Of a DNA stretch of 64,000 nucleotides, positions 3,486 through 60,949 are shown in pieces. Origin of the DNA: a phage. The notes under the pieces are model-generated. The model was not told the DNA's origin. It ran no database searches and saw nothing but the letters and a program-made list of their open reading frames with translations. Where the stretch lies: sequence record PZ445534.1, one strand, 5' to 3'. The position numbers and the translations under genes were made by a program. Each line of letters starts with the position of its first letter. The first letter of the stretch is position 1.

Positions 3486-3845
3486 TTATGGGAACAAGCA
3501 CTTAATGTCATCGTTTTTGAAAACAAAACTTGTGTAGTTATGACCATCAACATCCAGCCAAACAGCCTGAACATCTACACCATCAAGATTCTGGTAAAGT
3601 TCTTTGATGAAGTGGTCTTTCACAATCTGACTGCTAGTTGTTTCCAGCTTAATGTTCGAGATTGCTGAACCTACAGCCATATAGCCCATGACACGTTTCT
3701 TCTCAGTATGCTTAATCTTACCATCTTTGTAAGCCATAATGAGATTGGAAAGAATCTTTACACCATAATACTTTTCAAGGTGAGTAGGTACACCATAAAA
3801 GCCTAATGCGAAGTTTTCAGAGTGGATAATGTTTTCACGTTTCAT
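3486..3845 (-). CDS. hypothetical protein
   Basis: 119-aa ORF, no motif recognised. Confidence 0.35.
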   Translation of the reverse strand: MKRENIIHSENFALGFYGVPTHLEKYYGVKILSNLIMAYKDGKIKHTEKKRVMGYMAVGSAISNIKLETTSSQIVKDHFIKELYQNLDGVDVQAVWLDVDGHNYTSFVFKNDDIKCLFP

Positions 3846-3846
3846 A

Positions 3847-4176
3847 TTAATCTGCCAGCCTTAAATTAAAATTAACACCAAATTTTTCGCATACTTCCAA
3901 CATATACTCAAGCGAGACATTACCAGTGAGGTGGACTATGTTGGATACACGAGCTTGAGAGATACCACAAATTTTAGCAACTTGCTCTTGAGAAAGACCT
4001 CTGGATTTAATCTCTCTCTTAAAACGATGTGCAACGAAATCTCTCATTTCGTCTACATCCATTGGACAAATATAACTCTCCATTTCAGCCTCTCTGTCAG
4101 CCTCCCAATCATCTTGTGGAGCATAAGGGTCAAAAACCTCATTCATCTTTCTTCTTCCGTTTGCGTGAAGTGTCAA
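3847..4176 (-). CDS. helix-turn-helix DNA-binding protein (XRE-like)
   Basis: C-terminal segment LSQEQVAKICGISQARVSNIV resembles XRE-family HTH. Confidence 0.5.
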   Translation of the reverse strand: MTLHANGRRKMNEVFDPYAPQDDWEADREAEMESYICPMDVDEMRDFVAHRFKREIKSRGLSQEQVAKICGISQARVSNIVHLTGNVSLEYMLEVCEKFGVNFNLRLAD

Positions 4177-47744: not shown

Positions 47745-47770
47745 AGCCCCTTTCCCATAGGGGCTTTTTT
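47745..47770 (+). terminator. rho-independent terminator
   Basis: AGCCCC...GGGGCT stem plus TTTTTT. Confidence 0.6.
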
Positions 47771-49360
47771 ACGTCTATCCAATCCTCATACAACCCCTTT
47801 CCCTTTCCTTTCCAGAATCTTATCAGACCTTAAAAAGCAATAACTTTACAGCCTTTTACTAAGTCAATTAATTGGCCTTATTAATAAGCCCTTAAACATA
47901 AGCCAATAACCCCAGAAAGGGGGCAACCCATTTAAACGCCATATAAAGCCCTATAACGGCCTTTTTAACCTAACTTAAGGGATTGCATTACCTCACCCTT
48001 AAAAGCCCTTTATAAAGCTTCACAGAGCCTTAAAAGAATCTTATAAGGGTGTAAGCTTTATTATCTCGTTAGCTATCTTGTGAACTACTAAACAACCCCC
48101 TTGATAGTAACTGAAAAGTATGTTATAGGGGCTTTAAAGTTACTTTGAAGTAGCTTAAAAGTTACGTAAATGCTAGCCCCCTTAACATTTTCTTAACAAT
48201 TTCTTAACAATCCCTACATAGTTATGCTTTTAAGGCACTTGTTAGCAACTTGTTAGCCCCTTGTTAAATCTCTGTTAAGACCACGTAAAAGCCTTGTAAG
48301 AGTCTTTGACATAGCCTTAAAAGCTCCTGTAAAGCCCTATAAAGAGCTTTCTGTATAGTTGGGGTGTAACTACTAGGAAGAGACTTAAAAGAGCTTACAA
48401 GGAGCTATAGAGAGCTTTTAAGAGGTATGTTTAAAGAATCACTAGGGATTGGTAACAATACCAATTAAGAAGTAAAGGGAACGATAAGAAAAGAGTAGTG
48501 ACCATGTTAATAGCTTGTTAAAAAGATTAAACACTTGTTAGGAACTTGTTAATTATCTTAACAAAATAACTCTTTAAAATTAACTTCTTAGCTCTTGTTA
48601 GTCATCTGTTAAGATTCTGTAAAGCCTATTCAGCACTTGTTAATTGGTATTGTTACCAATCCCTAGAAAACTGTTAAGCCCTTGTTAGTTCTGTTAAGAA
48701 ACTGTTAAGACTTTTGAAGATTTGTTAAGAGCTTGAGAGAGTTGTTAAGAAATTGTTAAGGATATTTTAAAATTTTGCAAAGTACTTGTAAGGGAGCTGT
48801 TAAGGGCTACCAAGCAGATATACATCTTCTACAGATATTTTTCAGTTCCTTCAAAGACCCTAAAAAATGACTTGATAGTCCTATTTTATAAAAATTTTAA
48901 GATTCTGAATAATTACCTAGACAGTCTTTTAAAAATACAGGTAATAACAGGCTTATAAGATACCTTGTTAGTACCGTGTTAGACCTTGTGAGATAAGGTC
49001 TGTAAAGATATTCCTGTTAAGTTTGTTAAAACAGTCTATATAGAGGCTTAGTAATACCTAGTGAACACCTATAGAGGGTATCATAGCTAACCTAGAGATT
49101 AAGAGGTGTATAGGAGCTTCTAAGAGGGTATAGAGAGATGGTTAAGGTGATTGTATAGGTTGTTAAGAAGGCTTGTTAGAGGGCTTGTTAGAAGGGTTAT
49201 ACAGAGGGCTATTAAGACCACTAGATAGTTACTAAGATACTATATAGTACTATATAACTATATAGAGAGTAAGATTAAGAGGGTTGTTAAGAAGGATAGA
49301 TATTTTGTTCACATATGCTGGTGACCCAGAGGTTGGGACAACCGATGGAATTTTATAAAA
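47771..49360. repeat. 1.6 kb non-coding region dense in short (C/T)TGTTA(A/G)(G/C) repeats with a 24-bp perfect inverted repeat pair
   Basis: No ORF over 60 aa; more than 30 TTGTTAAG/CTGTTAAG/TTGTTAGC copies; GGGATTGGTAACAATACCAATTAA at 48445-48468 and its reverse complement at 48640-48663. Confidence 0.7.
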
Positions 49361-49398
49361 ATTAAAAAGCCCCCAATTAAGGAGGCTCTTAAGATATT

Positions 49399-50004
49399 TT
49401 AAATCAGACTTTCTAAAACTGTTTTTAGTGATGACTTGGTTGTCTGATAAAAATGAGTGAATCCGTTGTTGTTATCGAATATCTGCATCATAACAGCATC
49501 TCCCTTGATTGGGTACACTCGGATATCATAGTGAAACCCATTAAAGACAGCAGAACCATTACAGAATACACTAAAATCACTTGCTGAGATATACTCTTCA
49601 TGACCTGTGATTTTTATACAGACACCTTTACTCGGTCTCTTAGGGTTGATATCTTCCATAATAGACATACTCTGTCCACCAAGAGATACCATAGTGACCA
49701 CTTTACGGTTCTTCTGTCTGAAGTACATTTTAACCTTCTGCAAGGTGTCTTCATAGAACGGATAAGACTTCTCTACAAAGATTCCTTCAAGTGGCTCTTT
49801 ACCGTTTACAATACCTCTGGTATGGCGTACTGAGAAGATAAGTTGCTCTAGCAGGTCAAGGCTTTCTTCGGATAGTGCTTCCCGAATATCGCTCCAGTCA
49901 AGTACTAGGTAGTTACCTTCAACTTCTTTTAAGTTATCTTTTTCCATAGCTATCACACCATTATCGTAAAACTTGGTAGGCTGGTACTGCAAACTTGTTG
50001 CCAT
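49399..50004 (-). CDS. hypothetical protein
   Basis: 201-aa ORF. Confidence 0.4.
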   Translation of the reverse strand: MATSLQYQPTKFYDNGVIAMEKDNLKEVEGNYLVLDWSDIREALSEESLDLLEQLIFSVRHTRGIVNGKEPLEGIFVEKSYPFYEDTLQKVKMYFRQKNRKVVTMVSLGGQSMSIMEDINPKRPSKGVCIKITGHEEYISASDFSVFCNGSAVFNGFHYDIRVYPIKGDAVMMQIFDNNNGFTHFYQTTKSSLKTVLESLI

Positions 50005-50425
50005 TGTTCTTAATAAGGTCTTCTTCTGTTACTAAGAATGTAATCCCACATAAGTGCGTATAGTGGCTATCATACTCAAATATTTTAAGTAAGTATTTAC
50101 CATCATGATAAACAGATTCTACTACACCTTTTGCAACAATCTTTCCAGTCTTGAAATCTTTAAGAGGGTATGTATTACCGACTCTAGGGACTGTTTTCAT
50201 CTCAGGCTCTTTTAGCTTATCACCAGCTTCTACATCACCTAGCAAGTGAGAACTTTCAAAAGCTACATATTGCATATAAGCCTCTGAGCATTCCCAGATA
50301 AAACAATGTACAAGAGCCTTAGCAGCATGTCTTGAACAATTCAACTTATCACAAATCTCTTTGTACATTTCATCTTTAGTTGAGTTGTCAAGCATTGCTT
50401 TTTGAACGACTTCTTTAATTTTCAT
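49961..50425 (-). CDS. hypothetical protein
   Basis: 154-aa ORF. Confidence 0.4.
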   Translation of the reverse strand: MKIKEVVQKAMLDNSTKDEMYKEICDKLNCSRHAAKALVHCFIWECSEAYMQYVAFESSHLLGDVEAGDKLKEPEMKTVPRVGNTYPLKDFKTGKIVAKGVVESVYHDGKYLLKIFEYDSHYTHLCGITFLVTEEDLIKNNGNKFAVPAYQVLR

Positions 50426-50477
50426 TTCGCTACCTTCTAAGTTTCTACAAAGGGGCTATCAAGTAACCCCTAAGTTA

Positions 50478-50702
50478 TTACTCAGACTTTTCAGTCTTCT
50501 TGTCGGATTTCTTACTAGTCTTCTTCTCAGCTTTCTGTTCAGGCTCCTTCTCAGAAGTTGCCTTAATAACCATATCAAGAAGCTCTGATAAGTCACTCTT
50601 CAGCAAAGTAACAGGCTGCTCGTTGTAGAAGTTTTTGTCAAGATAAACTTTGAACTCTTCTATAGAAGGAAATCCAAAAATTGGTACAGGTGTCTTAATC
50701 AT
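50478..50702 (-). CDS. hypothetical protein with Lys/Glu-rich tail
   Basis: 74-aa ORF. Confidence 0.3.
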   Translation of the reverse strand: MIKTPVPIFGFPSIEEFKVYLDKNFYNEQPVTLLKSDLSELLDMVIKATSEKEPEQKAEKKTSKKSDKKTEKSE

Positions 50703-50778
50703 TGTTTAGTCTCTCCATAGGCATCTTTTAAGATTGCCTTGTTAATCATTTCAGCGATTGCAAAACGAACACATACAG

Positions 50779-51312
50779 CTATAATTGTAGGTTGCATTCT
50801 TTACTTACCTCTTCAAGTTTAACTTCAGAGTCCTTAAGTCGTTTCTTATGAACTCTGAATCTTAGTAGTGAGATTATGATACCAGCTAAAGGAACAGCAT
50901 ACAAGTACCAAACATCATATACCTTTGCAGTAATCTGTGTAATAGTCAAGTCTTGAGCTATGTAGCTGATTGCTGATACGGCTAGTAATGTTGCTAAGAA
51001 GAAAACCAGTATCATGGCAATATTCAGACAACCTCTGGCATGGTATTCATGCTTAATGCACTTATTCTTCTCTTCAACAACACTGTTGTAGTCATTTGTA
51101 AAGTCTCTGTAGAAAGCTTTCAAGTATTCTTGAGTGTAGCCTTCAAAGCAACCTGTACCGTACCAGTAATCACCACCAAAATGTGCTATGATACCGGTAT
51201 CTCCATTTGGTTTTGTTACTCTTAGGGAGACATGATGACCAGTCTTCTGGTAATCTATTTTGTATCTTTCTTCGTAAATCATTTCCCAACCCCTCTCAAT
51301 CGTTTGTTCCAT
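50779..51312 (-). CDS. hypothetical membrane protein
   Basis: Two C-terminal TM-like segments. Confidence 0.4.
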   Translation of the reverse strand: MEQTIERGWEMIYEERYKIDYQKTGHHVSLRVTKPNGDTGIIAHFGGDYWYGTGCFEGYTQEYLKAFYRDFTNDYNSVVEEKNKCIKHEYHARGCLNIAMILVFFLATLLAVSAISYIAQDLTITQITAKVYDVWYLYAVPLAGIIISLLRFRVHKKRLKDSEVKLEEVSKECNLQL

Positions 51313-51497
51313 TCAAGGTCAACAAATCTTTGCAGAACTTTCCCTCTAGGTGTTACGCCTTTTAAATCTGCATCATAGCAATGGTAAAAATCGCCTTCAG
51401 CGTACTTACCATAGCATTTTCTGATATTCTGGCTTCTGCGATACTGTTCTAACAGGGAAAGTTTGTAGTAATCTTCAACTGTAGTTAACTTTTTCAT
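51279..51497 (-). CDS. hypothetical protein
   Basis: 72-aa ORF. Confidence 0.3.
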   Translation of the reverse strand: MKKLTTVEDYYKLSLLEQYRRSQNIRKCYGKYAEGDFYHCYDADLKGVTPRGKVLQRFVDLEWNKRLRGVGK

Positions 51498-51580
51498 TCT
51501 TTTACCATGTCTCTTCTCTAGAAACTAAAAAGGGAACTACCTCTCGATAGCTCCCATCATAATCAGTTTTGTATACTCGG

Positions 51581-52162
51581 TCAAGAGTATTTTTTAGGCA
51601 GTAATGCACTGCGCTTGTTACTCTCTTCACTCAATAGTGCAATGAAATCATCACTTTTACCTTTCCACGGGCTGAATGAAGGGATGTGTTCACGGATAGC
51701 ATCAATCACTGTTTTAAGTGCTGTGTTCTTCATCCACCAATCAGAATCTGCTGATGCTACCACGTAGTATCCACCATCATCAGTTAAAATTGGCTCTGAA
51801 ATACATGGTGAAATCAAAGTGGTGATGATTGAACCATTGTTCATGTAATATGTGCGCTTAATAACCTTTTCAAGAAGCTTGTGAAGGTCACCAAACAGTG
51901 TTACAAGTTCTTTGTGGTCGATGTCTTTTTCTAGGCTTGCTCGGTACTTCAATAGTGCAGCATCAACCTCTCTGTCATTAAACTTGAAGTACTGGACTTC
52001 ATCAACAAGGCAGACACTAATGTTATTAACATTCATAGTCAACTTGCAAACTTTTGCAGGGGAATTGATACTCGGTTGAAAAAGTGCAACACACCCTTCA
52101 ATGTTTCCAAAATGTTGGACTAATGTTACTTGTGGAATGATATCCTGTTGCTCTTCGGACAT
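51581..52162 (-). CDS. hypothetical protein
   Basis: 193-aa ORF. Confidence 0.4.
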   Translation of the reverse strand: MSEEQQDIIPQVTLVQHFGNIEGCVALFQPSINSPAKVCKLTMNVNNISVCLVDEVQYFKFNDREVDAALLKYRASLEKDIDHKELVTLFGDLHKLLEKVIKRTYYMNNGSIITTLISPCISEPILTDDGGYYVVASADSDWWMKNTALKTVIDAIREHIPSFSPWKGKSDDFIALLSEESNKRSALLPKKYS

Positions 52163-52506
52163 TACAGTTTCCTCATTAAATACTTTTTAAGTTGTGTGTT
52201 AGGTTTCTCAAAAACTTCTATAGAAGATATCTTGACAGCTTCACCACGCATACCTGTATGTTTGAATATGTAATACTCTAACATCCCTATGTACTTTGCT
52301 GGTAAGTCATATTTGACATACACCGTCACAGAATCTTCAAACTCAACAACCTTTGTACCATCTTTGTAGTTGAACTCTTTAGGATGGTTGTAGTTGTCTA
52401 TATCGTACATTAAAAAGAGTCTTTTACGTTGTAAGTCAAGCTTATTTGTTAAAGACTCTTTGATATCTGAGAAGTTTTTGTACACTGTGACATGGAGCTT
52501 ACTCAT
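52162..52506 (-). CDS. hypothetical protein
   Basis: 114-aa ORF. Confidence 0.35.
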   Translation of the reverse strand: MSKLHVTVYKNFSDIKESLTNKLDLQRKRLFLMYDIDNYNHPKEFNYKDGTKVVEFEDSVTVYVKYDLPAKYIGMLEYYIFKHTGMRGEAVKISSIEVFEKPNTQLKKYLMRKL

Positions 52507-52792
52507 CGTTAAACTCTCTGACGAAGAAATAGTTGACTTTATTATTACCTACCATAAGGTCAAAGCAGGTATTTTCAAAAGGCTTGTTGTAGGCATCGTA
52601 TGCAGTGTACGTATCAGCTACTTGTTTAGTGTTGAGCTTTTTACTTGATGGGTTTAAGAGGCCACCATACAGCTTCTTGATAGCCTCTTCTACAACAGAC
52701 CAGATGATTTCGTCAGTAATTTCTTCGTACAGGTCAAGTTCACGCTCTAGTGAGAAGTCACAAATAGGGAAAACAACCTGTACTTTACTCAT
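52499..52792 (-). CDS. hypothetical protein
   Basis: 97-aa ORF. Confidence 0.35.
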   Translation of the reverse strand: MSKVQVVFPICDFSLERELDLYEEITDEIIWSVVEEAIKKLYGGLLNPSSKKLNTKQVADTYTAYDAYNKPFENTCFDLMVGNNKVNYFFVREFNDE

Positions 52793-53181
52793 TAACGAAT
52801 AACCTGTGAGACTTGAATTGCTTCAGTTACAGACAAATCACCAACTTTCTCTTCTTTGATAAAAGTGAAGGTGAGTTCAACAGGCTCTTGCTCTTCTTGC
52901 TCAACTGGAATACCGTTAAGCTCATCACGGATTGATTGAGTTGTCCAATCTTCCCCACCATCTGGATAATGGATTGCATAAAGTGGGAACTCCATGTCAT
53001 ACCAACCAAATACAGGGCAGCCATCTGCATCATCTCGCATCCTACGTAGTGTGCTACCTGAGCCTGTAAAACGAAGGCTGATATTACCATTACACTCAAA
53101 AATTACTGCATCAGCAAGACCAGCGTCTTCACGGCCATCATGGCCAAAAGTGTCAACTTTTACTTGAATCTCTTTATTCAT
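52792..53181 (-). CDS. hypothetical protein
   Basis: 129-aa ORF. Confidence 0.35.
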   Translation of the reverse strand: MNKEIQVKVDTFGHDGREDAGLADAVIFECNGNISLRFTGSGSTLRRMRDDADGCPVFGWYDMEFPLYAIHYPDGGEDWTTQSIRDELNGIPVEQEEQEPVELTFTFIKEEKVGDLSVTEAIQVSQVIR

Positions 53182-53572
53182 AGAAACCTCTCTCTGCTTG
53201 TTCGATTTTTGCTCTTAAAGCTTCGCAATGTTGTAAATGATAGTTAGCTTCTTGTTCATGTGTTGCTAACTGCCTTTCCAGAACAGTTTTATAATAACTT
53301 GCAAGTTGCTCTTTTGTCAATGGGTGCTCTGAAATAATATCAAGTCCACTTTCACCGAGAGGGTTGAATTGTCCATGTTCGTTGACATTGTAAGTCTCAA
53401 ACTTGAACAGGCCATTGTTCACAGACTCAATAGGTGACAGTTCAACAAGCTCTACAGTAAACCGTGTATATACCTTGTCACCTCTTGAAACCACATTGTT
53501 CCCGACAATGCGTACAAGCGAGCCATTACGAGTGTACTTAAAAGTCCCAAAGTCACTAGCCCAAAGTTTCAT
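53174..53572 (-). CDS. hypothetical protein
   Basis: 132-aa ORF. Confidence 0.35.
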   Translation of the reverse strand: MKLWASDFGTFKYTRNGSLVRIVGNNVVSRGDKVYTRFTVELVELSPIESVNNGLFKFETYNVNEHGQFNPLGESGLDIISEHPLTKEQLASYYKTVLERQLATHEQEANYHLQHCEALRAKIEQAERGFYE

Positions 53573-53589
53573 AGTTTTCTCCTTAGAAA

Positions 53590-53616
53590 ATAAAAAAGGC
53601 TCCAGAAGGAGCCTAT
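53590..53616 (-). terminator. rho-independent terminator (minus strand)
   Basis: AGGCTCC-AGAA-GGAGCCT hairpin with A-run on plus strand (T-run on minus). Confidence 0.55.
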
Positions 53617-53623
53617 GAAGATA

Positions 53624-54088
53624 TTACTTTGGGTATACACTGTCAAGATAAATGTCAGCTTCCATTCTACGTCTGTTTTTCAGTCCGTTTGAAGTGACCT
53701 TCTTACCTTTGACTGTAACCTTGTTCCACCACTGCATAGCTTCTGCACAACCCACCTTATTACCAGCATTGTGGCGCTTGATAAATGTGGAATCCTGCAT
53801 AGCTGTGATACCAATGTTGTATGTTTCACTTACAAGTGCGTCAAACTCATTCTGAGAAGTTGGAACATTGACGGCTTTGTTCACTGCTGCAACAAACTTT
53901 TCAACATCTGCGAGAAGATACTGTTCAGCTTGTTCAGCGGTAATCTTCATACCCATCTTAACAGGTTTTCCGTCAATACGGATTGTCCCATACCCGATTG
54001 TTGGGATTCCGGCAGAATCTTCGTAAGCCTCTAACTTCAGACCTTCAAAGAACTTAATAGCTTCTAAACCTTTTCTTGAGAGTTGCAT
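53624..54088 (-). CDS. endolysin (T4 lysozyme-like glycoside hydrolase)
   Basis: LEAIKFFEGLKLEAYEDSAGIPTIGYGT matches the phage lysozyme catalytic region (E...D...TIGYG). Confidence 0.85.
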   Translation of the reverse strand: MQLSRKGLEAIKFFEGLKLEAYEDSAGIPTIGYGTIRIDGKPVKMGMKITAEQAEQYLLADVEKFVAAVNKAVNVPTSQNEFDALVSETYNIGITAMQDSTFIKRHNAGNKVGCAEAMQWWNKVTVKGKKVTSNGLKNRRRMEADIYLDSVYPK

Positions 54089-54972
54089 TATGCCTCCCCT
54101 GCTGGATTAACTGTAACTGTTGCTGCATTAGATGTTACAGAGCCACCTGCGCCAGTAACTACACAGGTGTAGCTTCCTGAATCAGCAGCGGTTGCTCCTT
54201 CTTTGGTGTAGGTTGCAGTAGTTGCATCGAGGATGTCTTCCTCATCTTTCTTCCACTGATAACCTGTTGCACCTGTTGCCACAACATTCAACGTTAAGGT
54301 CTCACCTTCATTGATTTCTTGATTGGTTGGCTGTTGAGTGATGACAGGAAGTGCATTCACAGTCACTGTTGCTGCATCTGAGGTAACACTTGTTCCACCC
54401 TCTCCAGATACAACACAAGTGTATGAACCAGCATCAGAAGGTGCTACTGACTGTTTTGTGTAAGTTGCAGAATTGGCACTAGGGATGTCCTCACCATCCT
54501 TCTTCCACTGATATCCAGTGGCGTTAGTTGCTAGAATGCTTAGAGTAAGTGTGCCACCCTCATTGACTGTTTGACCTGTCGGTTGCTGAGTAATTGCTGG
54601 TGGCTTAATAGCATCCTTCAACTTAGCATTCAACATTGAGAACGGCTTAACTCTTGCCAACCATTCACAGTAAATTGTGTCAACATCTTTACCATTGATG
54701 ATTGCATACTGCAAATCCATGAAGAAATCAGCAGTTCTCATCTGTGCACCAACACTGTAAAGCAATTCATCACTAAATGGAACTTTGTAGTCTGGTTTGT
54801 AGTCAAACTTCTCAACTTCTGCAATATCAGCTTCAGGCCAATATGAACTATAGGTAAGTGGTAAAATAGCCTCTTGATATGTTCTAAAATCATACCTCTT
54901 ACCAGCCTTTACATTTGCAATGAAACCCTTCACAAACTCTTTGAAGTCTGGGTAAGTCTTTGCTTTAATCAT
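54088..54972 (-). CDS. protein with N-terminal domain paralogous to 54969-55340 and two Ig-like (Big-type) repeats
   Basis: Duplicated ITQQPT-N-QxxNEGxTLTLxxxATxATGYQWKKD...SYTCVV repeats. Confidence 0.5.
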   Translation of the reverse strand: MIKAKTYPDFKEFVKGFIANVKAGKRYDFRTYQEAILPLTYSSYWPEADIAEVEKFDYKPDYKVPFSDELLYSVGAQMRTADFFMDLQYAIINGKDVDTIYCEWLARVKPFSMLNAKLKDAIKPPAITQQPTGQTVNEGGTLTLSILATNATGYQWKKDGEDIPSANSATYTKQSVAPSDAGSYTCVVSGEGGTSVTSDAATVTVNALPVITQQPTNQEINEGETLTLNVVATGATGYQWKKDEEDILDATTATYTKEGATAADSGSYTCVVTGAGGSVTSNAATVTVNPAGEA

Positions 54973-55340
54973 TTCTTTTTAGCCTCTAAATGTGCGTTTA
55001 GTCTAAAATAACCTTTGTGATGCGGAGATACATCACCAACAACAATACCTTTAACCTTATAGCCTTTACCAATTACATACTGGATATCCATAAGGAATCT
55101 TCCAAGTCCAACAATATGGAACATTGGATATAATAGGTTCTCAGAATCTGGAATATTGATTTCAGGTTTGTAGGTGCATTGTTCGATTGTTGGTGTAATA
55201 TCTTCTTCAGGCCATTTGCTGAGTCTCCATGTCAAAGGTGTTGGGATAACATCATTAAGGTTGTACCTTTCACCATTTTGCACGGAATTGATATAGGATT
55301 GTAGGAAGCAATAAAAGTCTTTTGCACTCTTAGCTTTCAT
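54969..55340 (-). CDS. hypothetical protein, paralog of N-terminal domain of 54088-54972
   Basis: Shared pattern K-A-K...F...Y...GxRY...WPExDI...YKP...LLY...FxMDxQYxI. Confidence 0.45.
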   Translation of the reverse strand: MKAKSAKDFYCFLQSYINSVQNGERYNLNDVIPTPLTWRLSKWPEEDITPTIEQCTYKPEINIPDSENLLYPMFHIVGLGRFLMDIQYVIGKGYKVKGIVVGDVSPHHKGYFRLNAHLEAKKK

Positions 55341-55387
55341 TAAATATCCTTATAAATAGTTAAAGGGGCATCAGCCCCTATTCACAC

Positions 55388-55978
55388 TTAAGCTTTGGTC
55401 TTAAGTAGGTTCTTAAGTTTTTTAAGATTCATACTCTCATCAAACTTAAAACCAAATCCATTGACATAATCAATGAACTCGGATTTCTTACTAAGTGACA
55501 ATGCGTAACTCATATCAAAGTTCTTACTTGTTTCTGCGTCTGGACTAGAGTTCACATCAAATGAAATTTCTGTAGGCTCTTGCTTACTTTTTCTCATATT
55601 ATCAACCAACAAACATGTATAGTTTGCTGGATAGAAGTTTACACTACCATCAACGTAGCTGTACTTATTATTATGGATAAGGTTGGAAAATACCTTAAGG
55701 AATGTTTCTGAGTCGTGGCAAACAAGTTTGAATTGGCTGCTCTCTCCAAGCGCAACTAATGAGTACGGACTTTCACTATCAAAGTCATAATTTAGATTCG
55801 ATGCCGTCACTGTTACACGCATCAAGTTATTAGCAATAGTCTTCTGTTTAAAAGAATTTTGAACATAGTGAAGACCTCTATCACACTGATTGACTAGCTC
55901 TTTAAGCAGGTCATTTGCATATGGTGAATTAATTGATACAGAGCCATCACTATTGTAATTAAAACTTACTGTTAACAT
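55388..55978 (-). CDS. hypothetical protein
   Basis: 196-aa ORF. Confidence 0.4.
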   Translation of the reverse strand: MLTVSFNYNSDGSVSINSPYANDLLKELVNQCDRGLHYVQNSFKQKTIANNLMRVTVTASNLNYDFDSESPYSLVALGESSQFKLVCHDSETFLKVFSNLIHNNKYSYVDGSVNFYPANYTCLLVDNMRKSKQEPTEISFDVNSSPDAETSKNFDMSYALSLSKKSEFIDYVNGFGFKFDESMNLKKLKNLLKTKA

Positions 55979-60770: not shown

Positions 60771-60797
60771 AAGACTATGCAAAGACCTTTTTAGGTC
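60771..60797 (+). terminator. rho-independent terminator inside tRNA array
   Basis: AGACC-TTTTT-AGGTCT plus TTTTT. Confidence 0.5.
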
Positions 60798-60872
60798 TTT
60801 TTAGAGGGCTTCTAAGGTTATTACAGCTTGTTGTGGAACCTTGTTGCTTAGGTTCTTAGAAGTTCTCTAAAA

Positions 60873-60949
60873 AGATTTAATGCACCTATAGCCCAACTGG
60901 TAGAGGCAGCAGACTTAGAATCTGCTCAGTGTGAGTTCGAATCTCTCTA
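60873..60949 (+). tRNA. tRNA with anticodon TAG (Leu by anticodon) but short variable arm
   Basis: Acceptor GCACCTA/TAGGTGT, anticodon arm GCAGA-CTTAGAA-TCTGC, T-loop TTCGAAT, CCA. Confidence 0.55.

What the first reader, a model, noticed from the sequence alone, without database searches (positions are those of the whole stretch)
47771..49360. 1.6 kb non-coding region packed with TGTTAAG-type short repeats and a 24-bp inverted repeat pair
Between convergent terminators (47745-47770 plus strand; about 49365-49395 minus strand) there is no credible ORF. The sequence contains more than 30 copies of (C/T)TGTTA(A/G)(G/C), often in tandem pairs such as CTTGTTAGCAACTTGTTAGCCCCTTGTTAAATCTCTGTTAAG, plus GGGATTGGTAACAATACCAATTAA at 48445-48468 and its exact reverse complement at 48640-48663. 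A non-coding tract this large is unusual for a phage; candidates are a replication origin, a packaging or terminus-proximal repeat array, a binding array that titrates a host protein, or a long non-coding RNA. Similar CTTGTTG motifs recur at 60820-60850 inside the tRNA array.
Basis: seen in the sequence. Interest (0 to 1): 0.7.

Follow-up and report, generated by a model that had tools for sequence, protein, structure and literature searches.

The report
Phage genome ends with repeat array
The 1.6-kb gene-free tract is where the linear DNA of this Felix O1-like phage begins and ends: a roughly 636-bp terminal repeat and its flanks, packed with a conserved, evenly spaced short motif that most likely guides DNA cutting and packaging, which is a known kind of structure.

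Summary
The tract 47771-49360 has no credible ORF and lies between convergent terminators. Copies are mostly 11 bp apart.

The window is a Felixounavirus, and the tract is its genome terminus. It has three parts: right-end unique DNA (47771-48175), one collapsed copy of the direct terminal repeat (DTR, 48176-48811) and left-end unique DNA (48812-49360). Records from several laboratories start and end at homologous nucleotides. Published work gives a 613-bp DTR by PhageTerm and a 608-bp DTR by Bal31 and run-off sequencing in close relatives.

The DTR boundaries form an imperfect inverted repeat, TAGCCC(CC)TTAACA. Motif positions are more conserved than the spacers between them, and the tract is more conserved than the flanking genes across genera. 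T7 has an analogous CCTAAAG array at its ends.

The best reading is a concatemer junction with a cis-acting array for terminase or packaging. The DTR part is near-certain; the binding role is inferred.

It is a new member of a known kind and of modest interest.

The parts
47745..47770 (+). Intrinsic terminator that closes the rightward gene block. This is the last transcription signal before the right genome end.
   Evidence: 7-bp stem, T-run. Conserved in the alignment.
47771..48175 (.). Right-end unique non-coding DNA, lying just outside the terminal repeat at the right end of virion DNA. It has no TGTTA(A/G) copies. It is rich in CTTAAAAG, CTATAAAG and CTTATAAG-type octamers and has invariant blocks such as CCTTAAAAGAATCTTATAAGGGT.
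   Evidence: In Ro111lw and HP1 the homologous DNA sits between the last gene and the right-hand DTR copy.
48174..48187 (+). Left DTR boundary motif TAGCCCCCTTAACA. Relatives' records start at the G of 48176 (PhageTerm-type ends) or at the T of 48174 (UAB_69 annotation).
   Evidence: It is unique in the window and present once per locus in 12 of 14 loci. Mordin and Sf16 carry a one-substitution variant, TTTACA.
48176..48811 (.). Direct terminal repeat (636 bp here), present once in this assembly and twice in virion DNA. It holds 23 of the 31 TGTTA(A/G) copies (19 +, 4 -).
   Evidence: Exact prefix = suffix in Ro111lw (613 bp), HP1 (570 bp) and Erwinia MM7 (444 bp). UAB_69 carries an annotated 'DTR'. 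Published values are 613 bp (PMC6454146) and 608 bp by Bal31 plus run-off sequencing (PMC4837284).
48182..48210 (-). Three motif copies in reverse orientation (CTTAACA, 11-bp spacing) just inside the left boundary. They are 90% complementary to 48742-48770.
   Evidence: (I3). Phage ST11 has a fourth copy.
48238..48279 (+). Four head-to-tail motif copies at exactly 11-bp spacing.
   Evidence: (D3, D5). Conserved across genera.
48443..48465 (+). Copy 1 of a 21-nt palindromic mini-insertion (core GGGATTGGTAACAATACCAAT plus a duplicated TA). It is absent from all 13 aligned relatives.
48641..48663 (-). Copy 2 of the same mini-insertion in the opposite orientation. Among the aligned relatives only adrianh shares it.
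48672..48811 (+). Main forward array of about 9 TGTTAAG-type copies (spacings of 9, 11 and 20 bp) running up to the right DTR boundary motif TGTTAAGGGCTACC (48798-48811).
   Evidence: This block is the only part that still aligns at DNA level with Erwinia, Pectobacterium and Hafnia Ounavirinae.
48812..49360 (.). Left-end unique non-coding DNA, lying just inside the left-hand DTR copy in virion DNA. It has 8 forward motif copies. It has invariant blocks: AAGCAGATATACA at the cut, the CTATATAG triple at 49240-49265, and TCACAT..ATGGTGACCCA.
49365..49390 (-). Intrinsic terminator that closes the leftward gene block (49399-55978).

Best explanation
The tract is the genome terminus of a Felix O1-like myovirus (Felixounavirus) that packages unit-length DNA with short, exact, non-permuted direct terminal repeats.

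In replicating concatemers the order is right-end unique DNA (47771-48175), one DTR (48176-48811), then left-end unique DNA (48812-49360). The assembly shows this junction form with one DTR copy.

Inferred mechanism:
- The roughly 30 conserved TGTTA(A/G) octamers are spaced about one helical turn apart. They act as cis-acting binding sites that assemble a terminase or packaging nucleoprotein complex on one face of the DNA.
- The two DTR boundaries carry the same sequence, TAGCCC(CC)TTAACA, in opposite orientation. One enzyme can therefore nick opposite strands 636 bp apart.
- Fill-in or strand-displacement synthesis then duplicates the repeat, so each packaged genome gets a copy at both ends. 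This is a T7-type staggered-nick scheme.

Shown: the position of the ends and the DTR, the repeat anatomy, and purifying selection on the motif. Inferred: which protein binds, and the nick-and-fill steps.
For: Identity:
- 256 phage records match, nearly all Felixounavirus, Mooglevirus or Suspvirus.

Ends:
- At least five records from different laboratories (Ro111lw, NBSal004, HP1, ZX4221, SeKF_63) start exactly at the base homologous to window 48176 and carry a second copy at the other end.
- Ro111lw has an exact 613-bp prefix = suffix and HP1 an exact 570-bp one. Their last bases map to window 48811.
- UAB_69 has an annotated 618-bp 'DTR' with boundaries 2 nt wider on each side.
- Published: a 613-bp DTR by PhageTerm in Ro111lw (PMC6454146), a 608-bp DTR by Bal31 plus run-off sequencing in UAB_Phi87 (PMC4837284) and 581 bp in Pr103Blw (PMC8303462).
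- The boundary motifs occur once per locus in three genera. Inferred DTR lengths are 569-636 bp.
- Erwinia phage MM7 (Kolesnikvirus) has an exact 444-bp DTR with homologous boundary sequence and 16 motif copies.

Array:
- About 12-fold enrichment.
- 10 of 26 adjacent spacings are exactly 11 bp, with excesses at 20 and 31 bp.
- 16 phased pairs in the tract against 2 in the other 62 kb.
- Copies nearest the boundaries are inverted relative to each other (I3).

Selection:
- Within the DTR, motif positions are 96.6% conserved against 82.5% for other positions. None of 5000 permutations reached this.
- Across genera the tract is 81-84% identical, against 71-75% for the flanking coding sequences.

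Precedent, tested here:
- T7 has a 160-bp terminal repeat with 15 CCTAAAG-type heptamers in and next to it, mostly 13 bp apart.
- In T3 and T7 the packaging-specificity sequences lie within 5% of the genome ends (PMC3276506).
Against: - No binding protein is identified, and no reads from this phage were available, so the ends are placed in this genome by homology only.
- Most motif copies lie in the DTR interior and in the left-end unique DNA rather than at the cut sites. A terminase should not need about 30 sites, so another end-related function could use them (replication priming, recombination or annealing of repeats, end protection, ejection control).
- The boundary inverted repeat is imperfect (12 of 14 with a 2-nt gap) and is much weaker in Erwinia MM7.
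- The right-end unique DNA uses a different octamer family (CTTAAAAG-type here, TTCTAAG in MM7). That points to more than one binder.
- The function of the analogous T7 arrays is, to my knowledge, also not settled.
Confidence: 0.6

Rival explanations
1. The array is an iteron-type replication origin, or a secondary origin at the ends. A phage or host initiator would bind the phased TGTTAAG repeats and melt a neighbouring AT-rich stretch.
For: There are phased direct repeats. AT-rich 40-mers (82-85% A+T) lie beside the arrays at 48551-48590, 48745-48784 and 48882-48921. The tract is strongly conserved. From memory, T7 has secondary origins near its ends.
Against: There are no DnaA-box or IHF consensus sites. 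The tract sits at the maximum of cumulative GC skew, whereas the minimum, which is the usual origin signature, is near 11 kb. Skew is confounded with gene orientation, so this is weak evidence. No replication-initiator gene is annotated next to the tract in relatives. The symmetric arrangement at the two cut sites is explained by cutting, not by initiation.
Confidence: 0.12
2. The repeats bind a protein that acts on DNA ends rather than in packaging. Possible roles are protection of the entering ends from RecBCD, pausing or control of DNA ejection (as proposed for the repeat-rich non-coding part of the T5 terminal repeat), or promotion of DTR annealing and recombination to form concatemers.
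For: The location at both virion ends, the number of sites (about 30, more than a cutting enzyme should need), their one-face phasing and their extension 550 bp into the left-end unique DNA.
Against: There is no direct evidence. No Chi or known host-factor consensus is present. The tightest symmetry and conservation are at the cut sites. Two-step DNA transfer is not known for Felix O1-like phages (my knowledge).
Confidence: 0.15
3. The tract is transcribed into a long non-coding RNA, or it acts as a promoter or RNA-polymerase sink.
For: There are ten weak sigma-70-like matches against 5.7 +/- 2.3 in shuffles, because TTAACA resembles the -35 hexamer TTGACA. The CTTAAAAG..CTGTAAAG..CTATAAAGAG module at 48316-48346 resembles the 57-bp intergenic repeat reported in Felix O1 (PMC3185647).
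Against: No match scored better than 9 of 12 inside the tract. No Rfam family was found. The flanking operons both terminate facing the tract. Conservation is concentrated in 6-8-nt motifs with variable spacers, which is the pattern of protein-binding sites rather than of RNA structure. No transcriptome data were found.
Confidence: 0.08
4. The tract is an assembly artefact or neutral junk, with simple repeats generated by slippage and no function.
For: A DTR does collapse to one copy in assemblies, so the window does misrepresent the virion form. Copy number varies a little between relatives.
Against: The same tract is present in 256 independent records. It is more conserved than the neighbouring genes, and motif positions are more conserved than the spacers.
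Confidence: 0.02

Closest known systems
Phage T7/T3 concatemer junction (160-bp terminal repeat with flanking short-repeat arrays)
   Same: Both have a short, exact, non-permuted DTR in a gene-free terminal tract. Both have a 7-8-nt motif repeated many times inside and beside the repeat at regular spacing. In T7, checked here, there are 15 CCTAAAG-type copies in the first 360 bp, mostly 13 bp apart. In T3 and T7 the packaging-specificity sequences lie near the ends (PMC3276506).
   Different: The host virus is a myovirus with an unrelated genome. The DTR is four times longer. The motif (TGTTAAG) and period (11 bp) differ. Most copies lie inside the DTR rather than just outside it. The boundaries form an inverted repeat. 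There are no phage-RNA-polymerase promoters, which T7 uses in junction processing.
Mapped DTRs of other Ounavirinae (UAB_Phi87, UAB_69, Ro111lw, Pr103Blw, HP1, Erwinia MM7)
   Same: The same locus, homologous boundaries and a DTR of 444-636 bp. The ends were determined experimentally or from reads.
   Different: In the passages I retrieved by keyword search (ends, repeats and non-coding terms), those papers give the DTR length only. I found no description there of the phased TGTTAAG array, the inverted boundary motif or the conservation of the flanks. The literature search was limited to the open-access library.
pac/cos recognition arrays of other phages (SPP1 pacL/pacR boxes, P1 pac hexamers, lambda cosB R sites); from my own knowledge, not tested here
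   Same: Short repeated boxes, often phased by helical turns, flank a terminase cleavage site and bind the small terminase subunit.
   Different: Those phages make headful or cohesive ends from one cut region with a few boxes (3-7). Here there are two cut sites 636 bp apart, about 30 boxes, and no identified small terminase.
Terminal repeats bracketed by short inverted repeats in Staphylococcus Twort-like (Kayvirus) phages; from my own knowledge, not tested here
   Same: The boundaries of the direct terminal repeat are marked by the same short sequence in inverted orientation.
   Different: Those repeats are several kb long and contain genes. No phased internal array is known to me.

Membership tests
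Short exact direct-terminal-repeat (T7-type) genome terminus | The same sequence is present at both ends of virion DNA | tested here: met
   Met in relatives. There is an exact prefix = suffix of 613 bp (Ro111lw), 570 bp (HP1) and 444 bp (MM7). The window itself holds one collapsed copy, so for this phage the feature rests on homology.
Short exact direct-terminal-repeat (T7-type) genome terminus | Fixed, non-permuted ends at defined nucleotides | tested here: met
   Records from different laboratories start at the base homologous to 48176 and end at 48811, within 2 nt. The boundary motifs are conserved and occur once per locus.
Short exact direct-terminal-repeat (T7-type) genome terminus | Ends shown on virion DNA by experiment or reads | not testable with these tools
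   There are no reads or DNA for this phage. Published for relatives: Bal31 plus run-off sequencing for UAB_Phi87 and PhageTerm for Ro111lw and Pr103Blw.
Short exact direct-terminal-repeat (T7-type) genome terminus | Large terminase groups with DTR-type terminases | not tested
   I did not look for a large terminase gene in the window. PMC4837284 reports that the UAB_Phi87 terminase clusters in a Felix O1-like DTR group.
Terminase recognition array (pac/cos-type) | Repeated short boxes flanking the cleavage site(s), conserved in relatives | tested here: met
   Motif copies lie directly inside both boundaries in inverted orientation. They are more conserved than the spacers.
Terminase recognition array (pac/cos-type) | Helical phasing of the boxes | tested here: met
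   10 of 26 adjacent spacings are 11 bp, with excesses at 20 and 31 bp.
Terminase recognition array (pac/cos-type) | The boxes are bound by the small or large terminase and are needed for packaging | not testable with these tools
   This needs EMSA or footprinting and packaging or transduction assays.
Iteron-type replication origin | Phased direct repeats next to an AT-rich unwinding element | tested here: inconclusive
   Repeats are present, and so are AT-rich 40-mers of 82-85% A+T. However, the whole genome is 61% A+T.
Iteron-type replication origin | Host initiator sites (DnaA box, IHF) or an adjacent initiator gene, and a GC-skew minimum | tested here: not met
   There are 0 DnaA boxes and 0 IHF sites. 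The flanking genes are annotated only as small hypothetical proteins in relatives. The tract sits at a cumulative GC-skew maximum.
Known RNA family | A match to an Rfam covariance model | tested here: not met
   The only hit is a sub-threshold Phe_leader match on the terminator (25.6 bits against a 55-bit gathering score).
Miniature mobile element (for the 24-bp inverted-repeat pair) | The same unit at different sites and in both orientations, with a target-site duplication and empty sites in relatives | tested here: met
   The 21-nt core is flanked by TA..TA in almost every copy, with at least 6 distinct sites, and empty sites carry a single TA. The P219 variant and a degenerate IME338 copy depart from the rule. 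The Ro111lw site is off by one T. No transposase or insertion mechanism is identified.

The most novel reading that the evidence does not exclude
The roughly 30 phased TGTTAAG sites, together with a second octamer family on the other flank, may form a subfamily-wide 'telomere-like' nucleoprotein domain. It would position one nicking activity at two inverted boundary sites 440-640 bp apart. That would be a defined cis-element set for how myoviruses generate exact short terminal repeats, a step that is still poorly understood even in T7.

Separately, the tract hosts a 21-nt TA-duplicating palindromic mini-element. It is shared with lambdoid prophages of Shiga-toxin-producing E. coli and would be an unusually small mobile unit.
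Probability: 0.3. Interest if true: 0.5.

Novelty: new member of a known kind. Interest (0 to 1): 0.3.

Why it matters
Practical value:
- Most GenBank records of Felix O1-like phages are opened arbitrarily and lack the terminal repeat. This tract marks the true ends at about 48176 and 48811 in the window.
- That matters for correct annotation, for rebooting or engineering these therapeutic and typing phages from PCR fragments, and for interpreting coverage peaks.

Biological value:
- The conserved, helically phased motif array and the inverted boundary motif give concrete, mutable candidates for the packaging recognition and cutting signals of a widespread myovirus subfamily.
- These signals and their binding protein are not described in the literature I could search.

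The structure is not a new kind of system.

Tried and rejected
- First guess from the raw sequence: a T5-like phage and its injection-stop region. Rejected when one search identified a Felixounavirus.
- Literature searches for a description of this tract found none. The PhageMaP paper on the relative Bas63 gave nothing on this tract in my keyword search of it. The 'pacB' search was swamped by 'PacBio'.
- Rfam scans of the tract and of the related prophage gap found nothing.
- The sigma-70 scan gave only weak matches, caused by TTAACA resembling TTGACA.
- Host-factor consensus searches (DnaA, IHF, Chi, CRP, PhoB half-site) gave zero hits in the tract. The 11-bp head-to-tail layout recalls OmpR/PhoB-type boxes, but the PhoB half-site consensus tested is absent.
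- The CTTAAAAG..CTGTAAAG module was tested as a dispersed promoter-like element. The full module occurs only once in the window.
- tblastn with the first left-end gene did not reach other genera. A sensitive blastn of the tract did.
- A 131-nt DTR fragment gave no E. coli genome match at E<=1e-3. The prophage similarity beyond the mini-element therefore rests on a pairwise comparison only.
- I did not use protein-structure, homology-database or metagenome tools, because no protein is at issue in the tract.

Full report
**1. Checking the observation**

The tract 47771-49360 contains no ORF longer than 33 aa. It is bounded by terminator-like hairpins at 47745-47765 (+) and 49390-49365 (-).

The quoted tandem block and the 24-nt inverted pair are present exactly as described. 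The inverted arms extend to 32 nt at 97% complementarity.

The 6-nt core TGTTA(A/G) occurs 31 times (27 +, 4 -). That is 19.5/kb against 1.65/kb in the rest of the window.

CTTGTTAG is about 209-fold enriched. Phased tandem pairs occur 16 times in the tract and twice in the other 62 kb. Ten of 26 adjacent spacings are exactly 11 bp, with further excesses at 20 and 31 bp.

The CTTGTTG pair at 60820-60850 lacks the core motif.

**2. What the window is**

Megablast of the tract finds 256 phage records, nearly all Felixounavirus, Mooglevirus or Suspvirus (subfamily Ounavirinae, Felix O1-like myoviruses). Of these, 192 cover at least 80% of the tract.

In annotated relatives the homologous stretch is gene-free, or carries only unconserved mini-ORFs or small 'repeat_region' features. 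The window also has the 25-tRNA array typical of the group.

**3. The tract holds the physical genome ends**

- Several records start inside the tract at query position 406, which is window 48176, and have a second match at their other end: Ro111lw, NBSal004, HP1, ZX4221 and SeKF_63.
- HP1 annotates repeat_region 1-570 and 88766-89335.
- Ro111lw has an exact 613-bp prefix = suffix and HP1 an exact 570-bp one. Their first bases map to window 48176 and their last to 48811.
- UAB_69 annotates a 618-bp 'DTR' at the same place, 2 nt wider on each side.

Published work agrees:
- Ro111lw has a 613-bp DTR by PhageTerm (PMC6454146).
- Pr103Blw has 581 bp (PMC8303462).
- UAB_Phi87 has a 608-bp DTR shown by Bal31 digestion and run-off sequencing (PMC4837284).
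- Felix O1 itself was inferred to have short terminal repeats (PMC3185647).

The window therefore shows the concatemer-junction form:
- right-end unique DNA (47771-48175, 405 bp);
- one DTR copy (48176-48811, 636 bp);
- left-end unique DNA (48812-49360, 549 bp).

**4. Anatomy**

Boundaries. The left boundary reads ...AAATGC(TA)|GCCCCCTTAACATTTTCTTAACAATTTCTTAACAA. The right boundary reads ...CTGTTAAGGGCTACC|(AA)GCAGATATACA. The brackets mark the 2 nt that UAB_69 includes in its DTR on each side. Read inward from each end, both boundaries show TAGCCC(CC)TTAACA followed by further CTTAACA copies. The DTR is therefore bracketed by an imperfect inverted repeat. The arrays at 48182-48210 and 48742-48770 are 90% complementary.

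Motif distribution. None lie in the right-end unique DNA, 23 lie in the DTR (19 +, 4 -) and 8 lie in the left-end unique DNA, all +. The right-end unique DNA carries a different octamer family instead (CTTAAAAG, CTATAAAG, CTTATAAG).

**5. Conservation**

A 14-sequence alignment across three genera shows the boundary motifs invariant or nearly so. TGTTA(A/G) copies stay conserved while the spacers vary.

Within the DTR, motif positions are 96.6% conserved against 82.5% for other positions. None of 5000 random placements reached this.

Across genera the tract is 81-84% identical in aligned positions, while the flanking coding sequences are 71-75% identical. The product of the first left-end gene falls to 46-57% amino-acid identity in Mooglevirus and Suspvirus records.

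A sensitive blastn search extends the homology of the right-boundary array to Erwinia, Pectobacterium and Hafnia phages. Erwinia phage MM7 (Kolesnikvirus) has an exact 444-bp DTR with homologous boundary sequences. It has 16 motif copies in the same orientation pattern. Its right-end unique DNA holds a separate phased TTCTAAG array.

Pectobacterium phage Arno18 has a 1.46-kb gene-free tract, closed on the left by a terminator-like hairpin, with recognisable boundary-like sequences and fewer motif copies.

**6. The '24-bp inverted repeat'**

Each arm is a 23-nt insertion relative to relatives. It consists of a 21-nt core, GGGATTGGTAACAATACCAAT (a hairpin, ATTGGTA/ACAA/TACCAAT), plus a duplicated TA.

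The copy at 48443-48465 is absent from all 13 aligned relatives. The copy at 48641-48663 is shared only with adrianh. Ro111lw, SUSP2, P219 and UAB_69 carry copies at other positions.

Only 63 records have the element, with 1-6 places each. All four copies in IME338 lie within the terminal tract. Almost all copies are flanked TA..TA, and empty sites have a single TA.

The element is a sporadic mini-insertion, not part of the conserved architecture.

**7. Mechanism**

Shown: the position of the ends and the DTR, the inverted boundary symmetry, the phased array unique to the terminus, and purifying selection on the motif.

Inferred:
- The motifs are binding sites for a packaging or terminase complex assembled on one face of the DNA.
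- The same enzyme recognises the inverted boundary sequence at both sides and nicks opposite strands.
- DNA synthesis across the 636 bp then gives each packaged genome a full repeat at both ends.

T7 offers a tested anatomical precedent. It has a 160-bp terminal repeat and 15 CCTAAAG-type heptamers in the first 360 bp, mostly 13 bp apart. In T3 and T7 the packaging-specificity sequences lie within 5% of the ends, and packaging starts at the concatemer junction (PMC3276506).

**8. Rivals**

- Replication origin: no DnaA or IHF sites, and the tract sits at a cumulative GC-skew maximum. AT-rich stretches exist, so it is not excluded.
- Non-coding RNA or promoter sink: only weak sigma-70-like matches, produced by TTAACA, and no Rfam family. 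The conservation pattern is that of short protein-binding sites.
- End protection, ejection control or recombination: compatible with the number and spread of sites, and not testable here.
- Artefact or junk: refuted.

**9. Novelty**

The DTR of this genus is already known and has been mapped experimentally in a close relative, so the core of the finding is explained.

I found no description of the phased TGTTAAG array, the inverted boundary motif, the second octamer family or the high conservation of the flanks. The search covered only the open-access library, and within the papers I used keyword look-ups.

These features make the tract a new member of a known kind: a DTR concatemer junction with short-repeat arrays, as in T7. 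Interest is modest.

Noticed in passing
whole window 1-64000: GATC is completely absent: 0 sites against 183 +/- 13 in dinucleotide-preserving shuffles and about 223 from a Markov estimate. Several 6-bp palindromes are also missing or nearly so: CTGCAG 0 against 21, CAGCTG 0 against 13, CCATGG 0 against 10, ATGCAT 1 against 15. This looks like strong restriction-site or Dam-site avoidance. The Felix O1 genome paper does not mention it.
   Followed up: partly
window 48443-48465 (+) and 48641-48663 (-); L023 (IME338) 1070, 1239, 1606, 1792; L008 (SUSP2) 498, 1115: A 21-nt palindromic mini-element, GGGATTGGTAACAATACCAAT, is flanked by TA on both sides in almost every copy, and empty sites in relatives have a single TA. 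It sits at 6 or more different sites in both orientations. In every locus fetched (each covering only the tract and short flanks) and across this 64-kb window, all copies lie inside the terminal non-coding tract. It is present in only 63 of about 256 related phage records. It behaves like a very small mobile insertion with a TA target duplication. No mechanism is identified.
   Followed up: yes
L024 (E. coli E2863 chromosome NZ_AP018802) 4001-4029 and 3627-3742: The same TA-core-TA element occurs in 103 of 5426 complete E. coli genomes, always on the chromosome. In the one example examined it lies in an unannotated 1.5-kb gap of a lambdoid prophage, between a disrupted recombinase gene and ea22-like genes. 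About 110 nt nearby resembles window 48453-48563, a conserved block inside the terminal repeat, and TGTTAAG copies are scattered there too. The similarity beyond the element rests on a pairwise comparison only.
   Followed up: partly
window 47771-48175; L019 (Erwinia phage MM7) 785-1351: The DNA just outside the right-hand terminal repeat carries its own repeat family, distinct from TGTTAAG. It is CTTAAAAG, CTATAAAG or CTTATAAG in this phage. In Erwinia phage MM7 it is a striking run of about 20 TTCTAAG copies, many roughly one helical turn apart. This suggests a second DNA-binding specificity at the right genome end.
   Followed up: partly
window 48316-48346: The module CTTAAAAG-CTC-CTGTAAAG-CC-CTATAAAGAG resembles the core of the 57-bp direct repeat that the Felix O1 genome paper reports between early genes 15/16 and 19/20. 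The full module occurs only once in this window.
   Followed up: partly
window 60795-60875: An intergenic stretch in the tRNA array (AGAGGGCTTCTAAGGTTATTACAGCTTGTTG..CCTTGTTGCTTAGGTTCTTAGAAG) resembles in style the left-end unique DNA at 49170-49205 (TTAGAGGGCTTGTTAGAAGGGTTATACAG). It lacks the TGTTA(A/G) core. Its meaning is unknown.
   Followed up: no
window 49399-50004 (-): The first gene inside the left genome end is 100% identical at protein level to Escherichia phage heid (MN850577.1), so the window probably comes from that phage or a near-identical one. The protein diverges quickly between genera (46-57% identity) while the adjacent non-coding DNA does not.
   Followed up: no
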